This document shows, piece after piece, positions 1-11,983 of a DNA stretch of 64,000 nt (position 1 is the first letter of the stretch; each line of letters begins with the position of its first letter). Source of the stretch: an uncultured Chitinophagales bacterium (GTDB taxonomy: Bacteria > Bacteroidota > Ignavibacteria > UBA10030 > F1-140-MAGs086); contig CAYHPL010000005.1 of NCBI GenBank assembly GCA_964358705.1, forward strand, positions 4,566-68,565, in the 5' to 3' direction. A model generated the notes under the pieces. The model was not told the origin of the DNA. It did no database searches and was given only the letters and a program-made list of their open reading frames with translations. A program made the translations under genes and the position numbers.

Positions 1-1123
1 TAATATTTTAGGTGAAATTGCAATTGATTCTTCGCAAAACCTATATTTGGGATATGTAAAGACTGGCTCTCCCTACACAGGTTATCTCATCAAATATGAC
101 CAATATGGCGCAATTGTATGGAGTAGAATATTTGACTATAATCTTGATTATATGCGTCTGATTCTCAAAATTGATGTACAAGGTAACATTTTATTAGCTC
201 GCACTGCAAAGCGGAAATTGCGTGGAAGTGATGTTGCGTTAACAAAATTCAATCCCAATGGCGATTCTCTTTGGTCATACGAATATAATATTAGCAAATA
301 CGATTACAGTATTGATGTTGCAACAGATGCTTTAGAGAATATTTTTCTTCTTGCGCATACTAATAATGGACTCATTGCAAAAGAATTAAGAACAATTAAG
401 CTAACAGCAACTGGAAATTTTGAATGGGCATCTAAAATTAATTTTAATCCCAATGGGAGTCTTGAACCTGCACAGATAGGTTTGGATAACTTTAATAATA
501 TATATTCGACTGGTTATTATAAAGATTCAACAAACTCTGTTCATTATTACGTAAAAAAAATGAACCAATCAGGTACAGAACTCTGGAGCAGTGATTTTAA
601 TACAATGAAAAACAATGCAAGAATTCCTGCAATGATGATTGATATTAATAATAATGTCAATATTACCGGCGCACATATTCTCAATTATACTTCCAGCGGC
701 ATTCTACAATACGCACTTGAAAGTTCTGCTGATTTTGCAGGAATTGATGAAAACAGAAATTTATTCGTGGCACATAGGTTTTCAAGTTTATTCACTGTCT
801 CAAAATACCAACTACCCGTGACCGATGTAATTGTATCCGAAGAGAAATCAAGCACATTTGCGCTCAACCAAAACTATCCAAATCCTTTTAACTCTTTCAC
901 TGTAATAAAATTTCAACTTACGCACAATGGCACTGTCTCGCTGACAGTGTTTAATATACTCGGACAAAAAGTAGCAACGATTATTGATAATGAGGAAATG
1001 GAACAAGGCTATCATAGTGTGAACTTTGATGCTTCGCGTTTATCAAGCGGAGTGTATTTTTACCGCATTACGGTGAACAACAACGAATTTGTACAAATGA
1101 AAAAATTACTGCTTCTTAAATAA
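1..1123 (+). CDS. T9SS-secreted protein with beta-propeller-like repeats (5' truncated by window edge)
   Basis: Frame is open from position 2. C-terminus FALNQNYPNPFNS...LSSGVYFYRI...KKLLLLK is a type A T9SS sorting domain; repeated K(Y/F/L)xxxGxxxW motifs. Confidence 0.85.
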   Translation, partial: NILGEIAIDSSQNLYLGYVKTGSPYTGYLIKYDQYGAIVWSRIFDYNLDYMRLILKIDVQGNILLARTAKRKLRGSDVALTKFNPNGDSLWSYEYNISKYDYSIDVATDALENIFLLAHTNNGLIAKELRTIKLTATGNFEWASKINFNPNGSLEPAQIGLDNFNNIYSTGYYKDSTNSVHYYVKKMNQSGTELWSSDFNTMKNNARIPAMMIDINNNVNITGAHILNYTSSGILQYALESSADFAGIDENRNLFVAHRFSSLFTVSKYQLPVTDVIVSEEKSSTFALNQNYPNPFNSFTVIKFQLTHNGTVSLTVFNILGQKVATIIDNEEMEQGYHSVNFDASRLSSGVYFYRITVNNNEFVQMKKLLLLK

Positions 1124-1156: not shown

Positions 1157-2473
1157 TCATTCTTTTTTGCTTTCTCCGCGATGTACTTCAATTTTAATGC
1201 CGATTTTTTTTAAAAATTCAAACGGAAGTTCGCCGCCTGCAAAAACAAAAACAAAATCATTCGGAAGAATGAGCGTACGACCACTTTCTTCAATCTCCAC
1301 TTCTTTTTCACGAATGTCTTTTACCTGTGAATTAAACATTGCGGAAATTTTTCCTTCTGCAATATTTTTTTGAATGTTCGTTTGATTGCGCGGTTTCAAT
1401 CTGAAAAATGATTCTTTGCGATACGAAATGGTAACCTTGTTTCCTGTCTGATGCGCTAATCCCACAGCCGCTTCTATTGCGCTATCTCCCCCGCCAACTA
1501 CGAGCAAATTATTATTCTGAAATTGTTCCGCTTCAAGCAAGCGATACATAACCTTGGAATGTTGTTCGCCGCGCGCACCTAATTTTCGCGGAGTGCCGCG
1601 TCTTCCAAGTGCAAGAATTACATAACGAGTTTTATATTCACCTTTGGATGTTTTAACAAAAAAACTATCGCGTTCACTCACAATATCCGTTACTTTTTCT
1701 TCAAAGTGTAATTCCAATTTTGTCTTTGCAATAATATCATTCCAGATTTGCAGTAAATTTTCTTTTGTTACTTCCGAAAGATTCAGTTTGCCATACGTTG
1801 GAATTTCTACAGGAGATGTCAGCACAAGTTTTCTGCGCGGATAGTGCAAAATAGAGCCGCCGAAATCTGCTTCCTGTTCGAGCGTTACATAGCGGAGTTC
1901 ATTCTGCACAGCGGCAAGCGACGCACTCAATCCCGATGGACCCGCTCCGATAATCACCACATCAAGAATATTATCATTGCTGGATTTTTTCCGCTTCACA
2001 ATTTCCTGAATTACTTCGCTTCCCTGCTTTATTGCATTGCGGATTAATCCGATTCCTCCCAATTCACCAACAATAAAAATTCCCGGCACGTTTGTTTCAT
2101 AATGTTCATCAACTGTGGGAACTTCCACGCTGTTCGTTGGAGTGCCAAGCACTAATTCAATCGCGCCGACGGGACAATTTGCTGCGCACAATCCGTGTCC
2201 GACACATTTAGCGCCATAAATAACTGCCGCTTTACCATTGATTAATCCAAGCACGTCGCCTTCGGGACAGGAACTGATGCACGTTCCGCAACCAATGCAG
2301 GAAGATTGATTTATGATGGGATGCAATGTTGCAACTTCCGTCATTCCGCTGTCAAGCGCTTTTTGTAAATGGCGTTCAAAGTGTTGTGCCTTTTTTTTAT
2401 GCTGGCGTAAATAGAAAAAAAGAACAGGAATAATTATTACGAGTGCAGCAATGATTGTAATTACTATATCCAT
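1157..2473 (-). CDS. Membrane-anchored ferredoxin / FAD-NAD(P)H oxidoreductase (thioredoxin-reductase-like fold)
   Basis: N-terminal TM helix; CIGCGTCISSCP and CVGHGLCAANCP Fe-S motifs; IIGAGPSG FAD motif; VGGGDSAIEAA NAD(P)H motif; ETNVPGIFIVGE motif. Confidence 0.85.
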   Translation of the reverse strand: MDIVITIIAALVIIIPVLFFYLRQHKKKAQHFERHLQKALDSGMTEVATLHPIINQSSCIGCGTCISSCPEGDVLGLINGKAAVIYGAKCVGHGLCAANCPVGAIELVLGTPTNSVEVPTVDEHYETNVPGIFIVGELGGIGLIRNAIKQGSEVIQEIVKRKKSSNDNILDVVIIGAGPSGLSASLAAVQNELRYVTLEQEADFGGSILHYPRRKLVLTSPVEIPTYGKLNLSEVTKENLLQIWNDIIAKTKLELHFEEKVTDIVSERDSFFVKTSKGEYKTRYVILALGRRGTPRKLGARGEQHSKVMYRLLEAEQFQNNNLLVVGGGDSAIEAAVGLAHQTGNKVTISYRKESFFRLKPRNQTNIQKNIAEGKISAMFNSQVKDIREKEVEIEESGRTLILPNDFVFVFAGGELPFEFLKKIGIKIEVHRGESKKE

Positions 2474-2482
2474 TACAAATTT

Positions 2483-4051
2483 TTAAAACCTGTATCCGAT
2501 TTCAAAAAATATGCGGATGGTATTAGCAGTTACATCGAAATTTTTTTCAATGTTCCCGCTTAAAAAAAGTGAAGAAGAAATAAGCGCGGAAATATCTGCC
2601 CCAACAGTTGTAAGGTGTTTTGTTTCTGAAGTGCTCAGCAATTCATAAGAGTACTGTTCTATCTTAACGGTAGTATGTATTCCGGAAAAAAGTTCACGAC
2701 TAACATCCGCACCCACAGTCATTGCATTTGCGTACAGTCCTTTCAACAATGATATCCGCACACCGGAATTAATCTGTGATGAAAAAATATTACTCACAAA
2801 AACGCCAACGCCATTGTTGATAGATTTTCTCGTATCATTTTCGCGCAGACGAATATTGGAAAATCCATTGAGTGCAATGCCATTTTCCAAACGCACACTT
2901 GCAGAAAAACGAAACCCTTGCTGAAGTGTTTTATCAAAAAGTGAATCAGCAACACTGCTGTTCGTTTCAAATAAATACACATTGCGCGTTGCATCATACC
3001 CTGCAGAAAGCGATAGCCAATCAAGCGGCGCGCTTCCAATGCTGAGATAGGTATTTGTCAAGTGTAATTTTTTTTCAATTTTGCCGCTGTGCATTTCATT
3101 CACATCAATTTCTGTGCTGTGATAGAAATTTAACAAGCGTGATGCATCGAAGGAATTTTGCAGGTAAAGAAATTCGCGGTCAAGTTTTCCTTCACGCATT
3201 TGCTTGGTGTATGCAAGTGTTCCATCGTAGTGGAAATTTTCTGTTGCGTTAAAATGGTAATTGATAAAAGGTGAAAAGCGTGTATTTATTGTTTCAATGC
3301 CGGATGTTTTGTAATTGGGCTGCGAGCCGCCGGAAAAACCAAATGTAAATTCCTGCATTTTGTACATCATTTGCACGCCGTCGAATGCGCCTAATCCCAG
3401 CGCAAGTTTTGATTGAATTCTTCCGAAAGAATAACTCAGCGCCTCATTCGGATTAGCGTATTCAAAAAATAAATTATACAAACGTGTGCGCGAGCGGGAA
3501 GAATTTTTAAATCTCGTCTTGTTTGGAGAGAATGTATATTGCGAATTTGTGTAGAAAGATAAATTCCAAAATGAATTTGCAAGCCGTTGCAATGAAATAT
3601 TTATAATTGCCGATGGCTGATGAAATGAATAATTGTTGTTTGTCGCATTTAATACAGAATTATTTTGCAATGCAATGCGTCCGCGAAGCACATTTCCCGA
3701 TACTGCAACATCCGTTTTATTGTGCTTCGGCTGTGTAATTTGGGGAATATTTTCTCCGGCTCTTTTTTTAAATCCGAGAACTGTATCGCCAACTTTAACT
3801 GCAACCGAATCGGAAATATTTTTTCCGACAATGGACTTGCTGCTTGCGGCAGAAACGATGACAAATGCTATAAGCGAATCATTTCGTGCTATGCTCAATG
3901 TATCTCCTTCACTGCAATCTACATTTGCCGGACGCGCGATGTACACATTTCCGGAAGAGAGAAATGTTACTTTGCTGCTCACGATCTCCTGTGTTTGAGA
4001 ATATGCAACACAGAAAAAGAATAAGCAAAGTAAATATAATTTTATCGTCAT
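2483..4051 (-). CDS. Putative outer-membrane beta-barrel (porin of a porin-cytochrome complex)
   Basis: Signal peptide (AYS-Q), alternating amphipathic strands, C-terminal FFEIGYRF beta-signal; overlaps the cytochrome stop codon (ATGA). Confidence 0.7.
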   Translation of the reverse strand: MTIKLYLLCLFFFCVAYSQTQEIVSSKVTFLSSGNVYIARPANVDCSEGDTLSIARNDSLIAFVIVSAASSKSIVGKNISDSVAVKVGDTVLGFKKRAGENIPQITQPKHNKTDVAVSGNVLRGRIALQNNSVLNATNNNYSFHQPSAIINISLQRLANSFWNLSFYTNSQYTFSPNKTRFKNSSRSRTRLYNLFFEYANPNEALSYSFGRIQSKLALGLGAFDGVQMMYKMQEFTFGFSGGSQPNYKTSGIETINTRFSPFINYHFNATENFHYDGTLAYTKQMREGKLDREFLYLQNSFDASRLLNFYHSTEIDVNEMHSGKIEKKLHLTNTYLSIGSAPLDWLSLSAGYDATRNVYLFETNSSVADSLFDKTLQQGFRFSASVRLENGIALNGFSNIRLRENDTRKSINNGVGVFVSNIFSSQINSGVRISLLKGLYANAMTVGADVSRELFSGIHTTVKIEQYSYELLSTSETKHLTTVGADISALISSSLFLSGNIEKNFDVTANTIRIFFEIGYRF

Positions 4052-6630
4052 CGCATCTGCTTTAAATTATCACCTGTTGGATGACAGTCATAACAAGCAT
4101 TGCTTTGATACTGATAACCACTTACTCCATCATGCTCATTATTCATCTGCGCCTGCGGATGGCAAGATGTTGTACAAGTAAATATTGCAAAATTATTTGC
4201 ATTCTGATGACAATCGCCGCAAACGTTCCATCGTCCCGGACGATGTTTTGTTCCGTTTCCGATAGGAAATTCAGGCGTATGGTTGAAGGTGGAACTCCAA
4301 CTTGAAGTCGAATGGCACTGACTTGTAGTGCAATTATGCGGATAACCTTTCGTAGAATGTTGTGGCGCAGAAGTAAAATCTGAAGTATGGCACGGATAAC
4401 ATTCTGTCGGGACAGTTGTGTAATTTCCATTAATATGACATTGCTGACATCCAACAGTCTGATGCGCTCCTGTTAATGGAAAAGAAGTTACGCTATGATT
4501 GAATGAAGCGCCATCCCAAGTTTGTGTTGTATGACATTGCGTACAATTGTGCGGAAAACTTTGAATAGAATGTGGCGGGTCATTGGCAGTAGTATAATCC
4601 GATTCATGGCAACTCCAGCAATCTGTAGGAACGGTAGAATAATTTCCATTGATATGGCATTGCTGACACGGTGTTGCATTATGCGCTCCTGTTAAAGGAA
4701 AAATTGTATTCGCATGATTGAATGTTGATGGCTGCCAAACACTCGTGTTATGACACGGAGAACAATCGTGAGCAAATTGTGCTGTTACGTGATTCGGATT
4801 TGTTGTTTGTGTAAAATCAGTTTCGTGACAACTCCAGCAATCTGTTGGAAGATTGGTATAATTTCCATTTGTATGGCACTGCTGACATTGTGTTGTCTGA
4901 TGTGCTCCTGTCAATGGAAATTGCGTTAACGAATGGTCAAATAATGCCGGCTGCCATCCTGCTGTTTGATGACACGTTTCGCATTGATGTGAAAATTGTG
5001 CTGTTACGTGATTCGGATTTGTTGTTTGTGTAAAATCTGTTTCGTGACAACTCCAGCAATCTGTTGGAAGATTGGTATAATTTCCATTTGTATGGCACTG
5101 CTGACATTGTGTTGTCTGATGTGCTCCTGTCAATGGAAATTGCGTTAACGAATGGTCAAATAATGCCGGCTGCCATCCTGCTGTTTGATGACACGTTTCG
5201 CATTGATGTGAAAATTGTGCTGTTACGTGATTCGGATTTGTTGTTTGTGTAAAATCTGTTTCGTGACAACTCCAGCAATCTGTCGGAAGATTGGTATAAT
5301 TTCCATTCGTATGACATTGCTGACATTGTGTTGTTGTATGAGTTCCTGTTAAAGGAAATTGCGTTACAGAATGGTCAAATGTTGATGGTTGAAATGCAAT
5401 CGTGTTATGGCACGTTTCACATTGATGAGAAAATTGTGCAGTTGTGTGATTCTGATTTGTTGTTTGTGCAAAATCATTTTCGTGGCAACTCCAGCAATCT
5501 GATGAAATATTTGTATAATTTCCATTTGTGTGGCATTGCTGACATTGAACAGGCAAATGCGAGCCAGTCAATGGAAAATTAGTATTTGCATGATTAAAAT
5601 TGGAAGGCGTCCACGATAAACTTGAATGACACGCTTCACATTGATGCGAAAATAATGCTGTTGCATGATTCGGATTCGTTGTCTGCCCAAAATCATTTTG
5701 ATGGCAGGAATAACAATCTACAGGCAAAGAAGAATAATTTCCATTTGAATGACATTGCTGACATTGTACTGCAAGGTGTGCACCTGCAAGCGGAAACTGT
5801 GTTATTGAATGATTAAAATGTGATGGTATCCATGTATTTGGCTGATGACATGTTGCGCACTGATGAGAAAATTGTCCCGCAAGGTGATTCGGAGTTTGTA
5901 CGTTATTAAAATCTGTTTTATGACATCCATAACAATCTGTAGGAGTACCTGACGTTTTTTTATTATGACATTGTTCGCAAGTTAAATTACTATGCGCGGC
6001 TTGCTTCATAAAAGAAAAAGGCAGATGTTGAAATGTACTACTATTCCATTTTTGCGATGTTACCTGATGACATTCTTCACACGCCATTTTAATTCCAACT
6101 GCAATATGATTTGGCTTTATGGTTTCGTCAAAATCTTTTCTGTGGCAACCCGCGCAATCCAATGGTAATCCGACAAATTCATTTTTTTCAGTATTGGTAT
6201 GGCACTGTTTACAATTTACACTGCGATGAACACCAAGCAATGGAAATCGTGATGCCTGATGTTTTTCCAGCATATCTGTTACAACCCAACTTTTTGTGTT
6301 GTGGCAACGCTCGCATTGCTTGCCCACTTCGCCGCGATGTTGGTCTGTATGGCACGAAATACATTGTTGCGCTTTTCCTTTTTCATCACTAAACACAAGC
6401 GATGTATGGCAACTTTGACACTGCACAATTTTATGCTGTCCGTTCAGTGAAAAATTCGTTTGTATCGTATGGTCAAAACGTGCATCAATCCGCAATTGTG
6501 AAAATGAGGTTGTCGTATGGCAATCCGTACAGGCAATCGTTAAATTACCATGAGGTGATTCCTGTGAAAAAGCAAATGCAAAACAAAACAGGAAGAGATA
6601 AAATCCAAATAAAATGTTAGGAGTATTCAT
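4048..6630 (-). CDS. Giant multiheme c-type cytochrome (32 CxxCH plus CX4CH and CX3CH)
   Basis: Manual count of motifs. Probable start MNTPNILFGF at 6630 with signal peptide AFS-Q (alternative ATG at 6690); 73-aa tri-heme repeats. Confidence 0.93.
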   Translation of the reverse strand: MNTPNILFGFYLFLFCFAFAFSQESPHGNLTIACTDCHTTTSFSQLRIDARFDHTIQTNFSLNGQHKIVQCQSCHTSLVFSDEKGKAQQCISCHTDQHRGEVGKQCERCHNTKSWVVTDMLEKHQASRFPLLGVHRSVNCKQCHTNTEKNEFVGLPLDCAGCHRKDFDETIKPNHIAVGIKMACEECHQVTSQKWNSSTFQHLPFSFMKQAAHSNLTCEQCHNKKTSGTPTDCYGCHKTDFNNVQTPNHLAGQFSHQCATCHQPNTWIPSHFNHSITQFPLAGAHLAVQCQQCHSNGNYSSLPVDCYSCHQNDFGQTTNPNHATALFSHQCEACHSSLSWTPSNFNHANTNFPLTGSHLPVQCQQCHTNGNYTNISSDCWSCHENDFAQTTNQNHTTAQFSHQCETCHNTIAFQPSTFDHSVTQFPLTGTHTTTQCQQCHTNGNYTNLPTDCWSCHETDFTQTTNPNHVTAQFSHQCETCHQTAGWQPALFDHSLTQFPLTGAHQTTQCQQCHTNGNYTNLPTDCWSCHETDFTQTTNPNHVTAQFSHQCETCHQTAGWQPALFDHSLTQFPLTGAHQTTQCQQCHTNGNYTNLPTDCWSCHETDFTQTTNPNHVTAQFAHDCSPCHNTSVWQPSTFNHANTIFPLTGAHNATPCQQCHINGNYSTVPTDCWSCHESDYTTANDPPHSIQSFPHNCTQCHTTQTWDGASFNHSVTSFPLTGAHQTVGCQQCHINGNYTTVPTECYPCHTSDFTSAPQHSTKGYPHNCTTSQCHSTSSWSSTFNHTPEFPIGNGTKHRPGRWNVCGDCHQNANNFAIFTCTTSCHPQAQMNNEHDGVSGYQYQSNACYDCHPTGDNLKQMR
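4774..5307. repeat. Near-identical 219-bp tandem repeat (~2.4 copies) inside the cytochrome gene
   Basis: Sequence from 4774 recurs at 4993 and 5212 with very few mismatches; identical antisense ORFs 4845-5033 and 5064-5252 are offset by 219. Confidence 0.92.
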
Positions 6631-6676
6631 AAACCGAAAAGGATAAAATTGTTTAAAGCACGAAATATTTTTTAAA

Positions 6677-8344
6677 TTATCGCTTAGCATGGCACGATTC
6701 ACACAGAGGTGAAAGCGGTTTATAACGTATAAATTGTTTACTATTTTCAACCACAAGTTTATGGCAATCGCTACAAGGCAATTGTGAGTGTTTCCCATCC
6801 AGTACAAAACGTGATTGCGTATTGTGGTCAAAAGTTATTTTTTTCCATCCTGCAGATGAATGACAAATTTCGCATTGCACTGTTGTCGCTTCATTTCGTA
6901 AAAATTGTTTTTCATGAATATCATCGTGGCACGAAAAACACTGCAATGGTGTATCTGCAAATTGTATCCGCTCAGAATTGCTTCCTAAATCTACAATTTT
7001 ATGACACTCATTGCAAGCAACTGCGAGATGTAATCCTTTCAAAGAAAATTTTGTTTTATCGTGCGCAAAGTTTAGCAACTTCCAATCATTTGTAGAATGA
7101 CACGATTCGCATCCATCTTTTTTTACGCGCTCAGCAAATTGTCCTTTATGGATATCACTATGACACGATGTGCAACTCAATTCTTTCCAGAGAAAGAGAA
7201 TATGCTCTTTCTCTGTTCCTGCAAATTCTTTCGTATGACATTTATTGCACAGTAAATTTTTATGTTTTCCTGCTAAAGGAAATTTTGTTGCGGCATGCTC
7301 CTCCATCGAAAATTTTGAAGGCGTAAATCCATCTACAGTATGGCAACTTTCACACCGACCTTTATCAGAACGTAGCGCAAAATCTCCTTTATGATAATCT
7401 TTATGGCAATCGGAACACGCCGCAAATTTAAGTGCAGTTTTTTTTCCACTGTTTTTTGCTGTTGAAGTATTTTTACGCTCCTGATGGCATTGTTCACATT
7501 TTACAGAAATATGTTTTCCTAATAACGGGAACAACGTTTTTGAATGGTCAAATTTTCCTCCTGCAATGTTTTTAAAACTTTCTTCCGAATGACAGTTGCT
7601 GCAATTTGCTCCAAGTTTTCCGCTATGCACATCACTATGACAATCGCTGCACTGCTGAAATTGCAATGGCTTGAATTTTACTAAATGAAATTTTCCTTCT
7701 CTTAACTCTCCATCGTGACATTTCCCGCATTGCACATTGTTGTGTTTTCCCTTTAGTTTGAATCGCGATGAATTATGAGAAAATTTTTCGGCGCCGCTCC
7801 ATTGATTTTGCGTGTGGCAATCAAGACATTGCGAGGAAAGTTGCTTGCGATGTTCATCTTTATGGCAATCCAAACACTGCGTTCGTAATCCTAAAAAAGT
7901 TTTTTCAAGAAATTTTTCATCCTTGCGAAGAATATCATCATCGCGAATATTTTTCTTCGTATGGCATTGTTCACAACGTAATTGCTGATGTTTCCCATCA
8001 AGTACAAATCCCGCTTCCTGATGATTAAATTTTTCCTTCTCCCAACGCAATAACGACGCATCAATTCCGCGGTGCTCTTTATGGCACGTGATACAATCTT
8101 TTTTTTGCTGCGCCGAATGCATTCCGTGATTTTCTCTGATACGCGCACGTATCTCTTTGTGGCACTCTAAACATTTATCGCCTGAAATTTTATCTCCCAG
8201 TGAATGACACTTAGTGCAATTCGCCATTCCTTCAAGATTTTTGTGAACTGCAGAAAGCTCCCCCGGCGATATTTGCGCAACAGAATTTATTTGTAAAAAG
8301 ACAGTAGCACAACCCCAGAGAAACAAAAGCCTCCCTAATTTCAT
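6677..8344 (-). CDS. 20-heme c-type cytochrome, Lys-rich, probably periplasmic
   Basis: 20 CxxCH motifs counted; signal peptide NSVA-QISPG; recurring FxH..xxFxLxGKH..xCxxCH units. Confidence 0.93.
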   Translation of the reverse strand: MKLGRLLFLWGCATVFLQINSVAQISPGELSAVHKNLEGMANCTKCHSLGDKISGDKCLECHKEIRARIRENHGMHSAQQKKDCITCHKEHRGIDASLLRWEKEKFNHQEAGFVLDGKHQQLRCEQCHTKKNIRDDDILRKDEKFLEKTFLGLRTQCLDCHKDEHRKQLSSQCLDCHTQNQWSGAEKFSHNSSRFKLKGKHNNVQCGKCHDGELREGKFHLVKFKPLQFQQCSDCHSDVHSGKLGANCSNCHSEESFKNIAGGKFDHSKTLFPLLGKHISVKCEQCHQERKNTSTAKNSGKKTALKFAACSDCHKDYHKGDFALRSDKGRCESCHTVDGFTPSKFSMEEHAATKFPLAGKHKNLLCNKCHTKEFAGTEKEHILFLWKELSCTSCHSDIHKGQFAERVKKDGCESCHSTNDWKLLNFAHDKTKFSLKGLHLAVACNECHKIVDLGSNSERIQFADTPLQCFSCHDDIHEKQFLRNEATTVQCEICHSSAGWKKITFDHNTQSRFVLDGKHSQLPCSDCHKLVVENSKQFIRYKPLSPLCESCHAKR

Positions 8345-8985
8345 TTTTCTGATTTCGTATTCAAAGCGGAAATTCCCTGCTGCGCTTTAGTTGCATTTTC
8401 CGATTTTGCATCCGCGGCAATTGTTTTTTCCCACCATTGAATTGCTTCATCATTTTTTCCAATCGTAGCATGGAGTGCGCCGAGATTATACATAGCATTC
8501 GTATTTTTAGCATCGTACGAAAGAATTGTTTTTGTCGCAGCTATCGCTTCATCATATTTTTTTTGATGGTATAATGAAATTGAATAGTCGAGGCGGACTT
8601 CAATGTTTTTGGGTTCTTTATCCACAATCATTTTATAATATTTTTCTGCTTCTGCCATTTGATGCGCATCGAACATAAAATTTGCAAGTTCGTGAAGCGC
8701 GGCAATATTATTTGGGTCTTTCTCAACAGCATGTTTTAATTCATCAACTTTTTTCATTATTTCTTTTGAAACATTCATTTTAGAAGGTGGTTGCACTCCG
8801 CTTCCATCCGGTGATTCCATTTTATCAATCGGCGGATGATTCGGCGGAAGTTTTCCCTCAGAAGTTTCTGCATGCGCTTGTTGTGCTGGAGCGGCAGGTT
8901 TTGGTTCATTGAAAATCGTATAGGCAAGTACGCCAATAAAAACGACGACAAGAACAATATAGAAGAGATTAATTTTGTTTTTCAT
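8341..8985 (-). CDS. Membrane-anchored TPR protein, possible cytochrome c maturation factor (CcmI/CycH/NrfG-like)
   Basis: Start MKNKINLF at 8985; one TM helix, LPPNHPPI motif, C-terminal TPR repeats; lies inside the cytochrome operon. Confidence 0.65.
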   Translation of the reverse strand: MKNKINLFYIVLVVVFIGVLAYTIFNEPKPAAPAQQAHAETSEGKLPPNHPPIDKMESPDGSGVQPPSKMNVSKEIMKKVDELKHAVEKDPNNIAALHELANFMFDAHQMAEAEKYYKMIVDKEPKNIEVRLDYSISLYHQKKYDEAIAATKTILSYDAKNTNAMYNLGALHATIGKNDEAIQWWEKTIAADAKSENATKAQQGISALNTKSEK

Positions 8986-8987
8986 AT

Positions 8988-9884
8988 TTAAAATATCCAA
9001 CGATAACCAAATAAAAATGCAACCACAATATGGATTGCGAGAATAATAAACATAACAATGGTAAAAGGCAAATGGACAACATGCCAATAGTGAAATAATT
9101 TCTGTGTCCCTTCGAGTAATGCAACGCGCTGAAGAAGAATAGCTTTCTTTCGTGCAACGGCAATAATATTTTTTACGTCTTCTTTCTGCACATTTCTCGA
9201 TTTGAGTTGTTCCAGAAGGTGATGTAACGCTGCCCTTCTCTGTGCGCCTTTCAGAAAGAATTCCTTAAAAATCCCATTCCACGAATGTGATTTTTCCCTC
9301 ACTACCGCTCCGATTTTTTCTATTTCTTCAATCAGTGATTCGCTCAAGGAATATTCCTCAAATAATTTTCGTGAATAATCTCGATTCAGGTTTTCCAATT
9401 CATCAAATGTGAGCTCTGTACCTCTGATATTTTTGGGAATTTGTACGTACAAATAGCGACCAATAACACCGCTCAGCACTACTGCAGTCATACTCCAGAA
9501 ACTTACCGAAACAATTCCTCCGAATTTAAATGTAGTATGATATAATACGAATATTGGTCCGACAAGACAGAGAAAAATATGAAACTCCAGCCAGTAACTG
9601 ATTTTTCCCCACGATGATAATGCACGAATTCTTTTTCGCGATGAATACATTGACACGCCAAACACAATCATTGCCGTTCCCAAGAACCCAAGTCCGTGTC
9701 CGTAAAAACCAGTCGGTTTCCATAATTCATAATCGGAATGATACGGACGCTCAGCAATTGAAGTGGAATAGTACGAGCATCCCTTAAATCCAATAACTGA
9801 TACAGAAAGAATACCAAGAAAAAAAAGCAAAAAAACAAAAATTGTGTGAATTGCCTTACTTTGATCGCTTGTATTTTTTCGCAA
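8988..9884 (-). CDS. Inner-membrane protein with candidate heme-b His ligands (ferric-reductase/cytochrome b-like)
   Basis: Probable TTG start at 9884 (the longer ORF runs through a tRNA). About 5 TM helices; GHGLG, WLEFHIF, LYHTT, WHVVHLPF and AIHI motifs. Confidence 0.75.
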   Translation of the reverse strand: MRKNTSDQSKAIHTIFVFLLFFLGILSVSVIGFKGCSYYSTSIAERPYHSDYELWKPTGFYGHGLGFLGTAMIVFGVSMYSSRKRIRALSSWGKISYWLEFHIFLCLVGPIFVLYHTTFKFGGIVSVSFWSMTAVVLSGVIGRYLYVQIPKNIRGTELTFDELENLNRDYSRKLFEEYSLSESLIEEIEKIGAVVREKSHSWNGIFKEFFLKGAQRRAALHHLLEQLKSRNVQKEDVKNIIAVARKKAILLQRVALLEGTQKLFHYWHVVHLPFTIVMFIILAIHIVVAFLFGYRWIF

Positions 9885-9915
9885 AGAGATTTTATTATTT
9901 GTTCTATTGGAAAGT

Positions 9916-9949
9916 AAAATGCAAAATTGATTCTTCAATTTTGCATTTT
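9916..9949 (-). terminator. Hairpin downstream of tRNA-Pro
   Basis: Perfect 15-bp stem aaaatgcaaaattga / tcaattttgcatttt with a 4-nt loop. Confidence 0.6.
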
Positions 9950-9954
9950 TTTTG

Positions 9955-10028
9955 TCGGGATGGGGGGATTCGAACCCCCGGCCTCTTGGTCCCGAACCAA
10001 GCACTCTACCGGACTGAGCCACATCCCG
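9955..10028 (-). tRNA. tRNA-Pro(CGG)
   Basis: CGGGATG...CATCCCG-A acceptor stem, CTTGG-TTCGGGA-CCAAG anticodon arm, GGTTCGAATCC T-arm; CCA not encoded. Confidence 0.95.
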
Positions 10029-10051
10029 AACGAGAAAAAGTGATTATATAA

Positions 10052-11983
10052 TTATTTGTACTTTGTTACGATAACTTTGTTATCTCCATCTCCGCCAGCA
10101 GAAATTATCATTGTATTATTTCCACTTATTGCGACAGAAGTTACGCTTCCTTGATGCAATTTCCATCTCGTGGGCTGAGAATTTGCAACACTCAAATTCC
10201 ACAACACTACTTCTCCATCGCTTGAACCGTAAATCATTTCTGCGTTATCTGATGAAATTGTCTGCGATGTTATGCCATTTGATGAAATCATCATTGATGA
10301 AATTACTTTTCCTGTTGCATTATCCCAAAATAGTGTTTTCCCATTTTCACCGCCGGAAGAAACTATTTTTCCATCCGCACTTATGACAACAGACGTTAAA
10401 ATTGATTCCTGCCCTTTTAAAATATGCTTTACAGTTCCATCATTTGTATTCCATACACGAACAGATGAATCTGCACTTCCTGAAACAAGAAAGCGTCCAT
10501 CAGATGAAATTGCAATAGTCATCACTGCACCGTTATGCCCTGCAAAAGTTTGCTTTAAACTTCCGTCATTTGCATCCCACATTTTTACTGACTTATCATT
10601 ACTTGCAGAAAAAATGTATTTCCCATCTTTAGAAAACACAATTGATGTTATCCAATCTAAATGCGCATCAATTGTTGGAACAGCAGTACGCGGTTCTCCA
10701 GTAAGAAAATTGTAAAAATTAATTTTATTCAGACTGCCGTGAGCAAGAATTTTATCATCCGGTGAAATTGCAACGGTAAGCAACGCGCTTGAATAATCAA
10801 AATACGGTGGTTGCAATAAAATTCCATCATTCAATCTCCACACTTTTGTACTGTTATCGTTTGCCACGGAGGCAATATACTTGCCATCAATTGATATAGC
10901 AACATCGCTAACACCGGAAGTTTGTCCTGAAAAAGTAGCAAGATTTTCGCCAGCAATCGCAGTTGCAAGTTTCTGATTCCATTTTTTATCGCGGGCAATA
11001 TCCATTTGTCTTAGTTCTTCAATTCGTGCGATTTGTTGCTGGTCGCGCCACCAAAACCATCCATAAATCAATCCGCCTATTGCTCCGGCAATCACAATCA
11101 TCATTATTGCGCCGCGGATTGTTTTTGCTTTTTCTTTTGCACGAAATTCTTCGGATAATTTATTTTCATACGGAGTTGAGTCGCCGCCAACGCCGCTAAG
11201 AATATGTAAAAGTTGGCGAACGAGCTCTACATTTCTTTGATTGAACGCAATTGCCATTTCTTTATCAATGATTGCAACTACTTTTTTTGCAATATATTCC
11301 TGCGATGAAGTTACATCTCCGCCGGAAATTGCTGCTACGCCAATATATTTTTCTGTTATTTCATACTTCATGTTATCAAATGAACGCTCCGCCAACCGAA
11401 TTGCTTTTTCTGATAACTGCTGTCGTTGCGGAGTAAGTTCGGGCTGAATTGTTTTAGCAATTAATAAGTATGTTTCAATAACATCTACATCGTCGCCTGC
11501 TAATTTTTCGTCTGCGAGTTGCATCAGGCGCGATTCAAGTTTTTCTTCAAGAGAACGATTTTCATCACTTGCAAGTCGCCCGACATTCAAAAACTTTCGC
11601 ACAAGTCCAACATCACCTTCTTCCAATTTTGTCAAAGCAATATTTAACGCCATTTCGCTAATCCGACGCAAGGTTGATTGCACGTTTGCAATTGTACCTT
11701 TTGCAATCTCGACAAACTCTTCGACAAAATGTGCGCCGCCTTCCTCAAGCGTTTTTTGCGCAAATTGCATCGCTCTGTCTGCTAACATTGTGTGAATTTC
11801 TAAAACATCAAATCCGGATTCATGAATATCTTTCGTTATCGAAAGAACATTATTCATTTCACCAGGATGTTTCATTTCCGGAATTGCTTCCTTGAAATGA
11901 GAAAGGCGTTCTTCTGCCTGTCTTTGAGAATATGCCGGAGCGGATTGTTTTTTGCGTTCTTGTTTGTGTTGTTCGTTATCCAT
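10052..11983 (-). CDS. Single-pass membrane protein: N-terminal helical repeats, C-terminal WD40 propeller
   Basis: TM helix AIMMIVIAGAIGGLIYGWFWW; multiple (G/A)H...V..VA.S.DG...SGS.D.SV.VW repeats. Confidence 0.85.
   Translation of the reverse strand: MDNEQHKQERKKQSAPAYSQRQAEERLSHFKEAIPEMKHPGEMNNVLSITKDIHESGFDVLEIHTMLADRAMQFAQKTLEEGGAHFVEEFVEIAKGTIANVQSTLRRISEMALNIALTKLEEGDVGLVRKFLNVGRLASDENRSLEEKLESRLMQLADEKLAGDDVDVIETYLLIAKTIQPELTPQRQQLSEKAIRLAERSFDNMKYEITEKYIGVAAISGGDVTSSQEYIAKKVVAIIDKEMAIAFNQRNVELVRQLLHILSGVGGDSTPYENKLSEEFRAKEKAKTIRGAIMMIVIAGAIGGLIYGWFWWRDQQQIARIEELRQMDIARDKKWNQKLATAIAGENLATFSGQTSGVSDVAISIDGKYIASVANDNSTKVWRLNDGILLQPPYFDYSSALLTVAISPDDKILAHGSLNKINFYNFLTGEPRTAVPTIDAHLDWITSIVFSKDGKYIFSASNDKSVKMWDANDGSLKQTFAGHNGAVMTIAISSDGRFLVSGSADSSVRVWNTNDGTVKHILKGQESILTSVVISADGKIVSSGGENGKTLFWDNATGKVISSMMISSNGITSQTISSDNAEMIYGSSDGEVVLWNLSVANSQPTRWKLHQGSVTSVAISGNNTMIISAGGDGDNKVIVTKYK

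What the first reader, a model, noticed from the sequence alone, without database searches (positions are those of the whole stretch)
1157..9884. Six-gene trans-envelope electron conduit: porin-cytochrome complex coupled to a NAD(P)H flavoprotein
Seen: six tightly packed co-oriented genes (overlapping, or gaps up to ~46 nt) encode a His-rich inner-membrane protein, a TPR protein, a 20-heme cytochrome, a 32-34-heme cytochrome, a beta-barrel and a membrane-anchored ferredoxin-flavoprotein. Known: an inner-membrane protein plus two large multiheme cytochromes plus a porin is the architecture of the PCC3-type porin-cytochrome clusters proposed for extracellular electron transfer; these are largely uncharacterised. 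Inference: the added Fe-S/FAD/NAD(P)H enzyme would wire the cytoplasmic pyridine-nucleotide pool through heme b and more than 50 c-hemes to the cell exterior. That would be a self-contained, possibly quinone-independent EET module in an Ignavibacteria-like organism.
Basis: partly seen in the sequence, partly recalled or inferred. Interest (0 to 1): 0.9.

Follow-up and report, generated by a model that had tools for sequence, protein, structure and literature searches.

The report
Porin-cytochrome cluster with NAD(P)H flavoprotein
A conserved gene cassette in Ignavibacteria-like and Bacteroidota bacteria joins a two-heme membrane protein, two giant multiheme cytochromes and an outer-membrane barrel to a membrane-anchored iron-sulfur flavoprotein, which suggests, but does not prove, a wire from cytoplasmic NAD(P)H to the cell exterior that bypasses quinones.

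Summary
Six co-oriented, tightly packed minus-strand genes lie at 1157-9884:
- A, a 298-aa membrane protein
- B, a TPR protein
- C, a 20-CXXCH cytochrome
- D, a cytochrome with 32 CXXCH, one CX3CH and one CX4CH
- E, a 522-aa protein that models as a 22-strand beta-barrel
- F, a TM-anchored Fe-S/TrxR-like flavoprotein

A carries every motif published for the PCC3/PCC4 inner-membrane protein: five TM helices, SGXXG on TM4, and HX13H on TM3 and TM5. The cluster is therefore PCC3-like in architecture.

- E is a large barrel.
- F was present in 60 of 80 related loci. The other 20 loci all end within 1.4 kb of the last cluster gene. F keeps its linkage in three different gene orders.

B is optional (23 of 80 loci), so the core has five genes.

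Other members of the same membrane-protein family sit beside non-homologous cytoplasmic Fe-S or flavin reductases, and one is fused to a 2x[4Fe-4S] domain.

My best reading is NAD(P)H -> FAD -> Fe-S -> two b hemes -> about 54 c hemes -> outside (confidence about 0.5). Quinone independence, direction of flow and physiological role are inferred. PCC4/Ptd clusters already combine such parts, so this is a new variant of a known kind.

The parts
8988..9884 (-). A: inner-membrane protein (IMP), 298 aa, putative di-heme b transmembrane electron carrier
   Evidence: Five TM helices with a ~100-aa helical insert between TM4 and TM5 (model pLDDT 85). H102/H116 (TM3), H271/H285 (TM5), W267 and S138-G139-x-x-G142 (TM4) are invariant in 84 homologues. 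These are the PCC3/PCC4 IMP motifs of He et al. 2017. No Pfam family reaches its cut-off.
8341..8985 (-). B: membrane-anchored TPR protein, 214 aa, an optional accessory
   Evidence: TPR_19, TPR_17 and other TPR families; weak similarity to the CcmH/CycH TPR domain (26 bits, below the cut-off of 42). Present in 23 of 80 related loci and 5 of 20 relatives' loci. A role as a chaperone for apocytochromes is a guess.
6677..8344 (-). C: 20-heme c-type cytochrome, 555 aa, signal peptide, presumed periplasmic
   Evidence: 20 CXXCH. Cytochrome_C7 and c3 families. The DmsE/MtrA family scores 65.5 bits, below its cut-off of 192.2. 56 complete C-like ORFs in the 80 loci have exactly 20 motifs, by far the commonest count.
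4048..6630 (-). D: 32-34-heme c-type cytochrome, 860 aa from Met68, signal peptide, presumed outer or extracellular
   Evidence: 32 CXXCH, 1 CX3CH and 1 CX4CH. MtrC/MtrF domain II/IV family at 65 bits, above its cut-off of 30, in 5 stretches. 219-bp (73-aa, three-heme) tandem repeat at 4592-5547. Location not tested; by eye I saw no lipobox and no T9SS C-terminal domain.
2483..4051 (-). E: outer-membrane beta-barrel, 522 aa, signal peptide, small N-terminal beta domain (20-97) plus 22-strand barrel (121-521)
   Evidence: AlphaFold2 on 62 homologues: pLDDT 86, pTM 0.75, 22 strands after residue 121. Foldseek best matches are the FimD/PapC ushers, E 1e-10. VIA best matches include the 22-strand TonB-dependent receptors, Z about 15. 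Ends in Phe (F522 invariant).
1157..2473 (-). F: membrane-anchored Fe-S flavoprotein, 438 aa: N-terminal TM helix, two Fe-S cluster motifs, TrxR-like FAD/NAD(P)H domains
   Evidence: Pyr_redox_3 at 164 bits plus Fer4 families. Nearest solved structures are YpdA/Bdr 7a7b (2.4e-26), thioredoxin reductases and TrxR-type ferredoxin-NADP reductases. C59, C65, C69, C90, H93, C96, C100 and both GxGxxG-type motifs are invariant in 68 homologues. C62 is Cys in 52, Ser in 15 and Val in 1. There is no Cys in the flavin domain. The basic stretch after the TM helix places the catalytic domains in the cytoplasm (inference).
9954..10028 (-). tRNA-Pro(CGG), upstream boundary of the cluster; a palindromic hairpin at 9916-9949 lies between it and A
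   Evidence: ARAGORN; terminator-like hairpin. Not part of the module; it marks the module's 5' limit.

Best explanation
The five conserved genes (A, C, D, E, F), with optional B, most likely encode one trans-envelope electron conduit.

Proposed path (inferred):
1. F, anchored by one helix with its domains in the cytoplasm, oxidises NAD(P)H at its TrxR-like FAD domain. The motif SYRK suggests NADPH.
2. F passes single electrons through its two Fe-S clusters. One cluster has an invariant His ligand.
3. A carries the electrons across the inner membrane on two bis-His b hemes. H102/H271 lie near the cytoplasm and H116/H285 near the periplasm.
4. The 20-heme cytochrome C bridges the periplasm and enters or docks at the 22-strand barrel E.
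5. The ~34-heme cytochrome D extends the chain to an external acceptor such as Fe(III)/Mn(IV) minerals, humics or an electrode.

The logic is that of a split NADPH oxidase or ferric reductase feeding a PCC3-type porin-cytochrome complex, without need of the quinone pool.

Shown:
- gene content
- motifs
- the barrel fold of E
- strict genomic linkage of F with A

Inferred:
- heme b binding
- contact between F and A
- direction of electron flow
- the location of D
- quinone independence

Such a route would not itself build a proton gradient. Its likely use is as an electron sink (redox balancing) or for reductive dissolution of minerals rather than classical respiration.
For: 1. Linkage.
- F is present in 20 of 20 loci fetched around E homologues in relatives.
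- F is present in 60 of 80 loci fetched around A homologues in named genomes. The other 20 loci end within 1400 nt of the last cluster gene. No locus shows a complete cluster lacking F.
- The two sets share some genomes.

2. Linkage survives rearrangement.
- F lies after the barrel in 38 loci.
- F lies directly after A (or A-B) in 16 loci.
- F is divergent upstream of A in 4 loci.
- F is upstream on the same strand in 2 loci.
- Flanking genes are not conserved.

3. A has the di-heme signature, invariant in 84 sequences. Its charge distribution puts both His pairs on parallel helices (sequence reading).

4. F has intact FAD and NAD(P)H motifs, 6 Cys plus 1 His invariant in the Fe-S domain, and no redox-active Cys in the flavin domain. 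It therefore resembles a ferredoxin-fused FNR rather than a disulfide reductase.

5. The same family pairs with other reductases.
- Distant A homologues occur on Methylophaga and Legionella plasmids (profile E 2.1e-17 and 3.4e-15; same motifs).
- There the gene for a TM-anchored FAD_binding_6/NAD_binding_1/2Fe-2S protein precedes A and overlaps its start by a few bases. A 7-heme cytochrome gene follows.
- In relatives G009 and G051 a cNMP-binding 2x[4Fe-4S] protein precedes a 278-aa A paralogue and a decaheme cytochrome.
- Ptd/PCC4 clusters list a FAD/NAD(P) oxidoreductase, a 2x[4Fe-4S] protein and a ferric-reductase-like membrane protein.

6. A natural fusion exists. P0151 (746 aa) joins a 2x[4Fe-4S] domain to an A-type C-terminal part (hhalign probability 99.8%, E 2e-30).

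7. E is a large barrel of the size of plug-holding TonB-dependent transporters.
Against: - Members of the same membrane-protein family work without any adjacent flavoprotein. Proteobacterial PCC3 is described as four genes. Short A paralogues in G024 and G141 sit beside a decaheme cytochrome alone. The authors of PCC3 proposed exchange with the quinone pool.
- The genome has futalosine-pathway, UbiA-family and NuoD genes, so a quinone route is possible.
- A shows no detectable homology to the ferric-reductase domain. PF01794 finds nothing in this genome, and hhalign against six local FRD proteins gives probability 0.4%. It also has no sequence relative among solved structures. Heme b binding therefore rests on motifs alone.
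- The P0151 fusion is a single sequence on one 3.8-kb contig.
- An outward NAD(P)H route conserves no energy, which is odd for an apparatus of about 54 hemes.
- Nothing shows that D is outside the cell.
- No expression or biochemical data exist for any member.
Confidence: 0.5

Rival explanations
1. A is a quinol dehydrogenase or quinone reductase, as first proposed for PCC3. The conduit then links the menaquinone pool to the outside. F is an auxiliary input or regulatory enzyme, for example keeping A or a bound quinone reduced, or serving another substrate.
For: The PCC3 authors' model. F-less units of the same family exist. The genome has futalosine-pathway, UbiA-family and NuoD genes. All well-studied EET routes pass through quinones (my own knowledge, not from a call).
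Against: This does not explain why F is never missing from complete clusters and stays next to A when the order changes. It also does not explain why three unrelated Fe-S or flavin reductase types, and one fusion, accompany this family. No quinone-site motif was identified, and none was searched for.
Confidence: 0.25
2. The same chain runs inward. Electrons from an external donor (Fe(II), Fe(0), a cathode, reduced humics) pass through D, C, A and F to reduce NAD(P)+ for biosynthesis.
For: PCC3 was first found in iron oxidisers and proposed for electron uptake. FNR-type enzymes are reversible (my own knowledge). Carriers include MAGs labelled Prolixibacteraceae. I recall that some members of that family corrode iron; no call tested this.
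Against: Reduction of NAD(P)+ from most external donors is uphill, and inward electron movement works against the membrane potential (established bioenergetics). Carriers appear to be heterotrophs such as Emticicia. PCC3 genes were not induced by Fe(II) in Sideroxydans.
Confidence: 0.12
3. The genes are co-inherited but do not form one electron chain. For example, F and A could be a periplasm-directed reductase for cytochrome maturation or redox repair, and C-D-E a separate surface structure.
For: B resembles cytochrome-maturation TPR proteins weakly. The Emticicia cluster starts with ccsA. No physical interaction has been shown.
Against: The genes have overlapping or near-abutting starts and stops. 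The cassette is conserved across a phylum and on a plasmid. C keeps 20 hemes in nearly all loci, which suits a fixed-length bridge.
Confidence: 0.08

Closest known systems
PCC3 porin-cytochrome clusters of Proteobacteria (He et al. 2017, PMC5566968; e.g. Slit_0867-0870 of Sideroxydans lithotrophicus ES-1)
   Same: There is a ~300-aa inner-membrane protein with five TM helices, SGXXG on TM4 and HX13H on TM3 and TM5. There is a periplasmic cytochrome of about 21 hemes and a second, repeat-built cytochrome of about 34 hemes. There is a porin. Function is untested.
   Different: PCC3 is described as four genes with no flavoprotein, in Alpha-, Beta- and Gammaproteobacteria, with a model ending at the quinone pool. 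Here F is always present, and the hosts are Ignavibacteria-like organisms and Bacteroidota. I could not fetch PCC3 sequences, so homology of C, D and E, and of A beyond shared motifs, was not tested. PCC3 porins are said to have up to 42 strands; E has 22.
PCC4 (He et al. 2017) / ptdABCDEFG (bioRxiv 10.1101/2023.11.21.568154)
   Same: [quoted passage not shown] Function is stated to be completely unknown.
   Different: Ptd has 4-, 5- and 10-heme cytochromes and no giant outer cytochrome. Its Fe-S and flavin functions are on two proteins of other families: a cNMP-binding Fe-S protein and a flavohemoprotein-like reductase. Here one TM-anchored fusion of a ferredoxin domain to a TrxR-like flavoprotein does both.
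MtrCAB of Shewanella
   Same: The overall logic of periplasmic multiheme cytochrome, barrel and outer multiheme cytochrome. D carries MtrC/MtrF domain II/IV-like units.
   Different: C is below the MtrA/DmsE family cut-off. E has no Pfam family. The heme numbers are 20 and about 34 instead of 10 and 10. Mtr is fed by quinol through CymA (my own knowledge).
NADPH oxidase / ferric reductase (NOX, FRE): FRD membrane domain plus FAD/NADPH domain
   Same: The same proposed logic: cytoplasmic NAD(P)H, then flavin, then two stacked bis-His b hemes on two parallel helices with HX13H spacing, then an acceptor on the far side. He et al. noted the motif likeness.
   Different: No detectable homology exists. 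A has five helices, not six. The dehydrogenase is a separate TrxR-like protein with Fe-S clusters. The acceptor is a cytochrome chain.
TrxR-type ferredoxin-NADP+ reductases and YpdA/Bdr
   Same: F's flavin part aligns with YpdA (7a7b, 2.4e-26) and with TrxR-type FNRs. It lacks the CxxC of thioredoxin reductase.
   Different: F scores below the YpdA equivalog cut-off (171.8 against 339.9 bits). It has an N-terminal TM helix and a fused two-cluster ferredoxin domain. A GD-like FAD motif appears to precede the first Rossmann motif, which may indicate a permutation; this was not tested.

Membership tests
PCC3 (He et al. 2017) | About 300-aa inner-membrane protein with five TM helices, SGXXG on TM4 and two (W)X3HX13H motifs on TM3 and TM5 | tested here: met
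   H102/H116, H271/H285, W267 and S138-G139-G142 are invariant in 84 homologues. The helix pattern is seen in the model. The Trp before the TM3 motif is not invariant.
PCC3 (He et al. 2017) | Periplasmic multiheme cytochrome with about 21 hemes | tested here: met
   C has 20 CXXCH. 20 is the count in 56 complete orthologues. Periplasmic location is inferred from the signal peptide only.
PCC3 (He et al. 2017) | Very large, repeat-built second cytochrome (median 34 hemes), predicted extracellular | tested here: inconclusive
   The heme number (32+2) and 73-aa three-heme repeats are met. Extracellular location is not testable here. The repeat number is not confirmed by independent contigs.
PCC3 (He et al. 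2017) | Adjacent outer-membrane beta-barrel porin | tested here: met
   22-strand barrel model, pLDDT 86. Barrel matches.
PCC3 (He et al. 2017) | Sequence homology to the proteobacterial PCC3 proteins | not tested
   No PCC3 sequence could be fetched. Genome search cannot be centred outside the window's phylum. Supplementary tables are closed.
PCC3 (He et al. 2017) | Four-gene composition without a cytoplasmic redox partner | tested here: not met
   F is present in all 60 loci that extend beyond the cluster, and in 20 of 20 relatives' loci.
PCC4 / Ptd | Three periplasmic cytochromes of 4, 5 and 10 hemes and no extracellular cytochrome | tested here: not met
   This cluster has two cytochromes, of 20 and about 34 hemes.
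PCC4 / Ptd | IMP accompanied by FAD/NAD(P) and 2x[4Fe-4S] proteins | tested here: inconclusive
   The same cofactor set is present, but fused in one protein of another family.
MtrCAB | MtrB/PioB-family porin and MtrA/DmsE-family decaheme cytochrome | tested here: not met
   E matches no Pfam family at E <= 0.01. That Pfam holds an MtrB_PioB model is recalled, not checked. C scores 65.5 bits against the TIGR03508 cut-off of 192.2.
Ferric reductase domain (Pfam PF01794; NOX/FRE/MsrQ) | Match to the FRD profile | tested here: not met
   There is no PF01794 match in the window's genome, though controls ring. hhalign of A4 against six FRD proteins of relatives gives probability 0.4%. The fold comparison is inconclusive.
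TrxR-like two-dinucleotide-binding flavoproteins (Pyr_redox_3; YpdA, TrxR-type FNR) | FAD and NAD(P)H Rossmann motifs; family profile above its cut-off | tested here: met
   Pyr_redox_3 scores 164.3 bits against a cut-off of 30. G176/G178/G181 and G327/G329/D330 are invariant. F is not a YpdA equivalog (171.8 against 339.9 bits) and has no CxxC.
Geobacter Pcc (OmaB-OmbB-OmcB) | OmbB-like porin with an 8-heme periplasmic and a 12-heme outer cytochrome | not tested
   No profile for OmbB was at hand. The heme numbers differ. The Pcc cluster reported for Ignavibacterium album (IALB_1837-1840, 14-heme) is a different cluster by its description.

The most novel reading that the evidence does not exclude
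A family of about 300-aa di-heme membrane proteins, with no Pfam family and about 3,900 cluster representatives, is a general 'socket'. Through it cytoplasmic NAD(P)H-dependent Fe-S flavoproteins of at least three unrelated types inject electrons directly into periplasmic and outer multiheme cytochromes. The cassette described here would then be the first complete quinone-independent route from the pyridine-nucleotide pool to the cell exterior in a diderm. In effect it would be a bacterial split NADPH oxidase wired to a cytochrome nanowire. It is also mobile, since one copy lies on a plasmid.
Probability: 0.35. Interest if true: 0.85.

Novelty: new variant of a known kind. Interest (0 to 1): 0.66.

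Why it matters
Every well-studied extracellular electron transfer pathway takes its electrons from the quinone pool (my own knowledge). A module that draws on NAD(P)H directly would be a new way for fermenters and aerobes to dump reducing power on minerals, humics or electrodes. It would change how EET potential is read from genomes, because FeGenie-type searches look for cytochromes and porins rather than the flavoprotein. It would also give synthetic biology a compact, self-contained cassette.

The finding extends PCC3-like clusters from Proteobacteria to Ignavibacteria-like organisms and Bacteroidota. It names a cultured carrier, Emticicia oligotrophica DSM 17448 (plasmid pEMTOL02), in which the untested function of PCC3-type systems becomes directly testable.

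Tried and rejected
Complex prediction: complex prediction of A (alignment A1) with F (alignment A3) gave no verdict (score 0.29, mark 0.32; controls not run). It counts neither for nor against binding.

Fold of A:
- Foldseek against the PDB gave nothing at E <= 0.001.
- VIA-align wide gave Z <= 8.4, within the noise for helical models.
- No cytochrome b, FRD or NOX chain appeared in either list. This is not evidence of a different fold.

Sequence of A:
- The A4 profile against PDB sequences gave nothing below E 0.8.
- The Pfam DUF4405 hit (E 0.0099, 16.8 bits against a cut-off of 26.7) covers only TM1, so I dropped it.

Fold of E: MtrB did not appear among the Foldseek or VIA rows shown. That is not evidence against an MtrB-like role.

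Expression and public runs:
- The look-up of sequencing runs listed no RNA holder. All 15 runs are DNA, and those with an organism on record are groundwater metagenomes.
- Read laying showed near-identical contig pieces in four runs. No listed piece lies across 4804-5438.

Other attempts:
- P0026 (418 aa: A residues 1-228 plus the C-terminal half of a Pyr_redox_3 domain) looks like a chimeric or broken gene call. I did not use it as a fusion.
- P0037 (513 aa) carries an unrelated N-terminal DUF6572-like part.
- I tried to centre a genome search on Gammaproteobacteria in order to reach true PCC3 clusters. It was not possible.
- The ESM Atlas gave only unnamed clusters, commonest in Acidobacteriota and Gemmatimonadota.
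- Supplementary files of He et al. 2017 were not seen. Tables 3-6 and Figure S4 list PCC3/PCC4 hosts and the 'other redox proteins'. They may already list Bacteroidota hosts or these reductases.

Literature searches for prior description:
- 'Ignavibacteria' + 'PCC3': 0 papers.
- 'Ignavibacteria' + 'porin-cytochrome': 10 papers. The three I read passages of describe OmbB-like, MtrB-like, pcc-like or mto-like clusters and none mentions a flavoprotein.
- 'multiheme' / 'ferric reductase' / 'HX13H'.
- 'Melioribacter roseus' + 'multiheme' + EET.
- 'Bacteroidota' / 'multiheme cytochrome' / 'porin' / 'NADPH' / EET. This search led to the Ptd preprint.
- I found no paper that describes this flavoprotein-bearing cluster. 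Subscription journals are not covered.

Full report
**What is there**

The minus strand of window 1157-9884 carries six ORFs with overlapping or near-abutting ends.

A (8988-9884):
- It must start at the TTG at 9884, because the longer ORF runs through tRNA-Pro(CGG) at 9954-10028.
- This start keeps a His that is invariant in 84 homologues. A public gene call that starts 18 codons later would lose it.

The other five genes:
- B (8341-8985) is a TM-anchored TPR protein.
- C (6677-8344) has exactly 20 CXXCH.
- D (4048-6630 from Met68) has 32 CXXCH, one CX3CH and one CX4CH. It contains a 219-bp, 73-residue, three-heme tandem repeat.
- E (2483-4051) has no Pfam or NCBIfam family.
- F (1157-2473) has an N-terminal TM helix, a two-cluster ferredoxin domain and a Pyr_redox_3 flavoprotein part.

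The B/C and D/E junctions are 4-nt ATGA overlaps. The largest gap is 46 nt, between C and D.

The neighbours are a convergent T9SS-sorted protein, a WD40 protein and a SpoU methylase. They are unrelated and are not conserved next to the cluster elsewhere.

The barrel:
- AlphaFold2 with 62 homologues models E with pLDDT 86 and pTM 0.75.
- The model has a small N-terminal beta domain (20-97) and a 22-strand barrel (121-521).
- Foldseek ranks the 24-strand ushers FimD and PapC first (E 1e-10, TM about 0.4).
- VIA-align's top rows include 22-strand TonB-dependent receptors (Z about 15, 350-370 residues aligned), among smaller porins.
- E is thus a large-lumen barrel of the size that holds a ~150-residue plug in those transporters. 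Whether C threads it is not shown.

Conservation of the flavoprotein, relatives' set:
- E homologues occur in 24 of 61 genomes of the same order.
- In the 20 loci fetched around them, F is present in 20 of 20.
- The order A-(B)-C-D-E-F is kept wherever the contig allows.

Conservation of the flavoprotein, named-genome set:
- A scan of species-representative genomes with the A alignment found 278 relatives. The 80 loci kept come from MAGs labelled Ignavibacteriales, Ignavibacteriota or Bacteroidota. Some carry labels such as Prolixibacteraceae, Draconibacterium or Flavobacteriaceae, and one is Candidatus Chrysopegis kryptomonas.
- F is present in 60 of the 80. The other 20 loci all end within 1400 nt of the last cluster gene.
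- No locus has a complete cluster without F.

Gene orders among the 60:
- F follows the barrel in 38 loci. In one of these it is split into two ORFs.
- F follows A (or A-B) directly in 16.
- F is divergent upstream of A in 4.
- F is upstream on the same strand in 2.

The two locus sets share some genomes, and kin are not independent. Even so, linkage that survives three rearrangements is good evidence of a functional tie, specifically to A.

Other conservation figures:
- B is present in only 23 of 80 loci.
- C keeps 20 hemes in 56 complete orthologues.
- D-like ORFs vary from 2 to 58 motifs, a range that includes fragments and second copies.

**What the parts are**

A:
- It meets each feature that He et al. 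(2017, PMC5566968; passages and section 16 read) give for the conserved inner-membrane protein of PCC3 and PCC4. These are about 300 residues, five TM helices, SGXXG on TM4, and WX3HX13H on TM3 and TM5.
- In 84 homologues H102, H116, H271, H285, W267, S138, G139 and G142 are invariant.
- From the charge distribution, TM3 and TM5 both run from cytoplasm to periplasm. H102/H271 would then hold a heme near the cytoplasm and H116/H285 one near the periplasm.
- A ~100-residue helical insert between TM4 and TM5 faces the cytoplasm (model).
- The family is large and unnamed: 3,944 representatives at E <= 1e-3 and 680 at E <= 1e-30 among 1.84 billion clusters.
- It is patchy in the phylum. It was found in 47 of 401 sampled genomes at E <= 1e-10, and a few of those hits are short paralogues.
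- The window's genome has one copy.
- It is not detectably related to the ferric-reductase domain. PF01794 finds nothing in this genome while controls ring. hhalign against six FRD proteins from relatives gives probability 0.4%.
- It has no clear structural neighbour. The NOX/FRE likeness is therefore one of logic and motif, not of membership.

F:
- Its flavin part is nearest to YpdA/Bdr (7a7b, 2.4e-26), to thioredoxin reductases and to TrxR-type ferredoxin-NADP+ reductases.
- Both dinucleotide motifs are invariant.
- The flavin part has no Cys at all, so it is not a disulfide reductase.
- The first Fe-S motif is C59-x2-C62-x2-C65-x3-C69-P, with C62 replaced by Ser in 15 and Val in 1 of 68 sequences.
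- The second Fe-S motif is C90-x2-H93-x2-C96-x3-C100-P, with the His invariant.
- The basic stretch RQHKKK after the TM helix and the lack of a Tat motif place the domains in the cytoplasm (inference).

**Evidence from other forms of the family**

- Emticicia plasmid. A tblastn of A against plasmids found the whole cassette on pEMTOL02 of the cultured Emticicia oligotrophica DSM 17448. The order is ccsA, A, F, a 635-aa and a 1001-aa cytochrome c3 family protein, and a 538-aa hypothetical protein in E's position.
- Gammaproteobacterial plasmids. The same search found distant A homologues on plasmids of Methylophaga pinxianii and two Legionella. The Methylophaga plasmid and the L. pneumophila plasmid were examined further.
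  - Support is 24% identity, profile E 2.1e-17 and 3.4e-15, and the same HX13H/SGXXG/WX3HX13H pattern.
  - Each sits in a three-gene unit. A 612-630-aa protein with one TM helix and FAD_binding_6, NAD_binding_1 and 2Fe-2S domains overlaps the start of the A homologue by a few bases. A 7-heme cytochrome follows.
  - The surroundings are metal-resistance genes.
- Relatives G009 and G051. A cNMP-binding 2x[4Fe-4S] protein precedes a 278-aa paralogue and a decaheme cytochrome. This recalls PtdE-PtdF-PtdG of the ptd operon (bioRxiv 10.1101/2023.11.21.568154, passages read), which also has a FAD/NAD(P) oxidoreductase, and PCC4 subgroup II.
- Fusion. One 746-aa protein, P0151, fuses a 2x[4Fe-4S] domain to an A-type C-terminal part (hhalign 99.8%, E 2e-30). 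It is a single sequence on one short contig.
- Units without a reductase. Short paralogues in G024 and G141 sit beside a decaheme cytochrome with no reductase nearby. Proteobacterial PCC3 is described as four genes without one.

**Reading**

The simplest account of strict A-F linkage, the cofactor set and the recurrence of unrelated cytoplasmic Fe-S or flavin reductases beside this family is the following. A is a transmembrane heme-b wire. It is fed from the cytoplasm by F and delivers to C, E and D.

Outward flow from NAD(P)H is thermodynamically easy and is helped by the membrane potential, but it conserves no energy. An electron-sink or mineral-dissolving role therefore seems more likely than respiration. 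I put this at about 0.5.

The main rival is the quinone-coupled model of the PCC3 authors, with F as an accessory (about 0.25). The F-less units support it, as does the presence of futalosine-pathway, UbiA-family and NuoD genes in this genome. The classical menA model found nothing.

Inward flow to NAD(P)+ (about 0.12) and non-chain readings (about 0.08) remain possible.

**Comparison and novelty**

By architecture and by A's motifs this is a PCC3-type cluster. It differs from PCC3 in host range and in the obligatory flavoprotein. It differs from PCC4/Ptd in its cytochromes and in having the Fe-S and flavin functions fused in a TrxR-like protein.

Its parts do not reach the family thresholds tested for Mtr. 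By its heme numbers it is not the OmbB-like Pcc reported for Ignavibacterium album.

My searches found no paper on this variant. Supplements and subscription journals were not covered.

I rate it a new variant of a known kind. Its interest comes from three things:
- the possible quinone-independent input
- the family-wide pattern of reductase partners
- the availability of a cultured, plasmid-borne example for testing

**Limits**

- There is no expression, localisation or interaction evidence.
- Heme b binding is inferred from motifs.
- D's repeat number is unconfirmed.
- Homology to true PCC3 proteins is untested.

Noticed in passing
window 9884-10028: The longest ORF of gene A runs through tRNA-Pro(CGG) (9954-10028, minus strand) and a perfect hairpin (9916-9949). 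A public gene call for A starts 18 codons after the TTG at 9884 and would drop the invariant His13.
   Followed up: partly
window 4592-5547: A 219-bp tandem repeat (4.4 copies, 86% matches) encodes 73-residue three-heme units of D, two of them identical at protein level. No listed contig piece of four public runs spans 4804-5438, so the copy number and heme count may be an assembly estimate.
   Followed up: partly
window 1157-2473 (F residues 90-101 and 119-140): The second Fe-S motif is CxxHxxCxxxCP with the His invariant in 68 homologues. A GD-like FAD motif (ETNVPGIFIVGELGG) lies before the first GxGxxG, which hints at a circular permutation relative to YpdA/TrxR.
   Followed up: partly
L122 (NC_018749.1, Emticicia oligotrophica DSM 17448 plasmid pEMTOL02, 78197-89995): The complete cassette ccsA-A-F-C-D-E lies on a 100-kb plasmid of a cultured aerobe from warm spring water. 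The module is therefore mobile and testable in culture.
   Followed up: partly
L123 (Methylophaga pinxianii plasmid) 8073-11427; L124 (Legionella pneumophila plasmid) 6034-9505: A three-gene unit lies among copper and heavy-metal resistance genes. It has a TM-anchored FNR-like 2Fe-2S reductase with a ~200-aa periplasmic N-terminal part, a 252-aa A-type di-heme protein and a 7-heme cytochrome. Its function is unknown.
   Followed up: partly
L130 (G024) 5025-6502; L131 (G141) 5924-7407; L132 (G009) 3950-8194; L133 (G051): Short A paralogues (192-278 aa, same His and SGXXG motifs) are paired with decaheme cytochromes. In G009 and G051 a cNMP-binding 2x[4Fe-4S] protein precedes them, as PtdE does. 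In G024 and G141 there is no reductase nearby.
   Followed up: partly
P0151 (746 aa); P0026 (418 aa): P0151 is a natural fusion of a 2x[4Fe-4S] domain with an A-type membrane part. P0026 joins a truncated A to the C-terminal half of an F-like domain and is probably a broken or chimeric call.
   Followed up: partly
G000 contigs C16 (10-47 kb), C1 (218-227 kb), C25, C8: The genome has 22 ORFs with four or more CXXCH. They include further clusters with 19-, 13-, 12-, 11- and 10-heme proteins, so this organism probably has other electron-transfer systems.
   Followed up: no
G000 whole genome: The classical menA model (TIGR00751) finds nothing, but three MqnA-family (PF02621) genes, four UbiA-family genes and two NuoD genes are present. 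Menaquinone is therefore probably made by the futalosine route.
   Followed up: partly
window 47-1123 (+) and 10052-11983 (-): The neighbours are a T9SS-sorted beta-propeller-like protein (Por_Secre_tail) and a 643-aa protein with one TM helix and WD40 repeats. Neither is conserved beside the cluster.
   Followed up: partly
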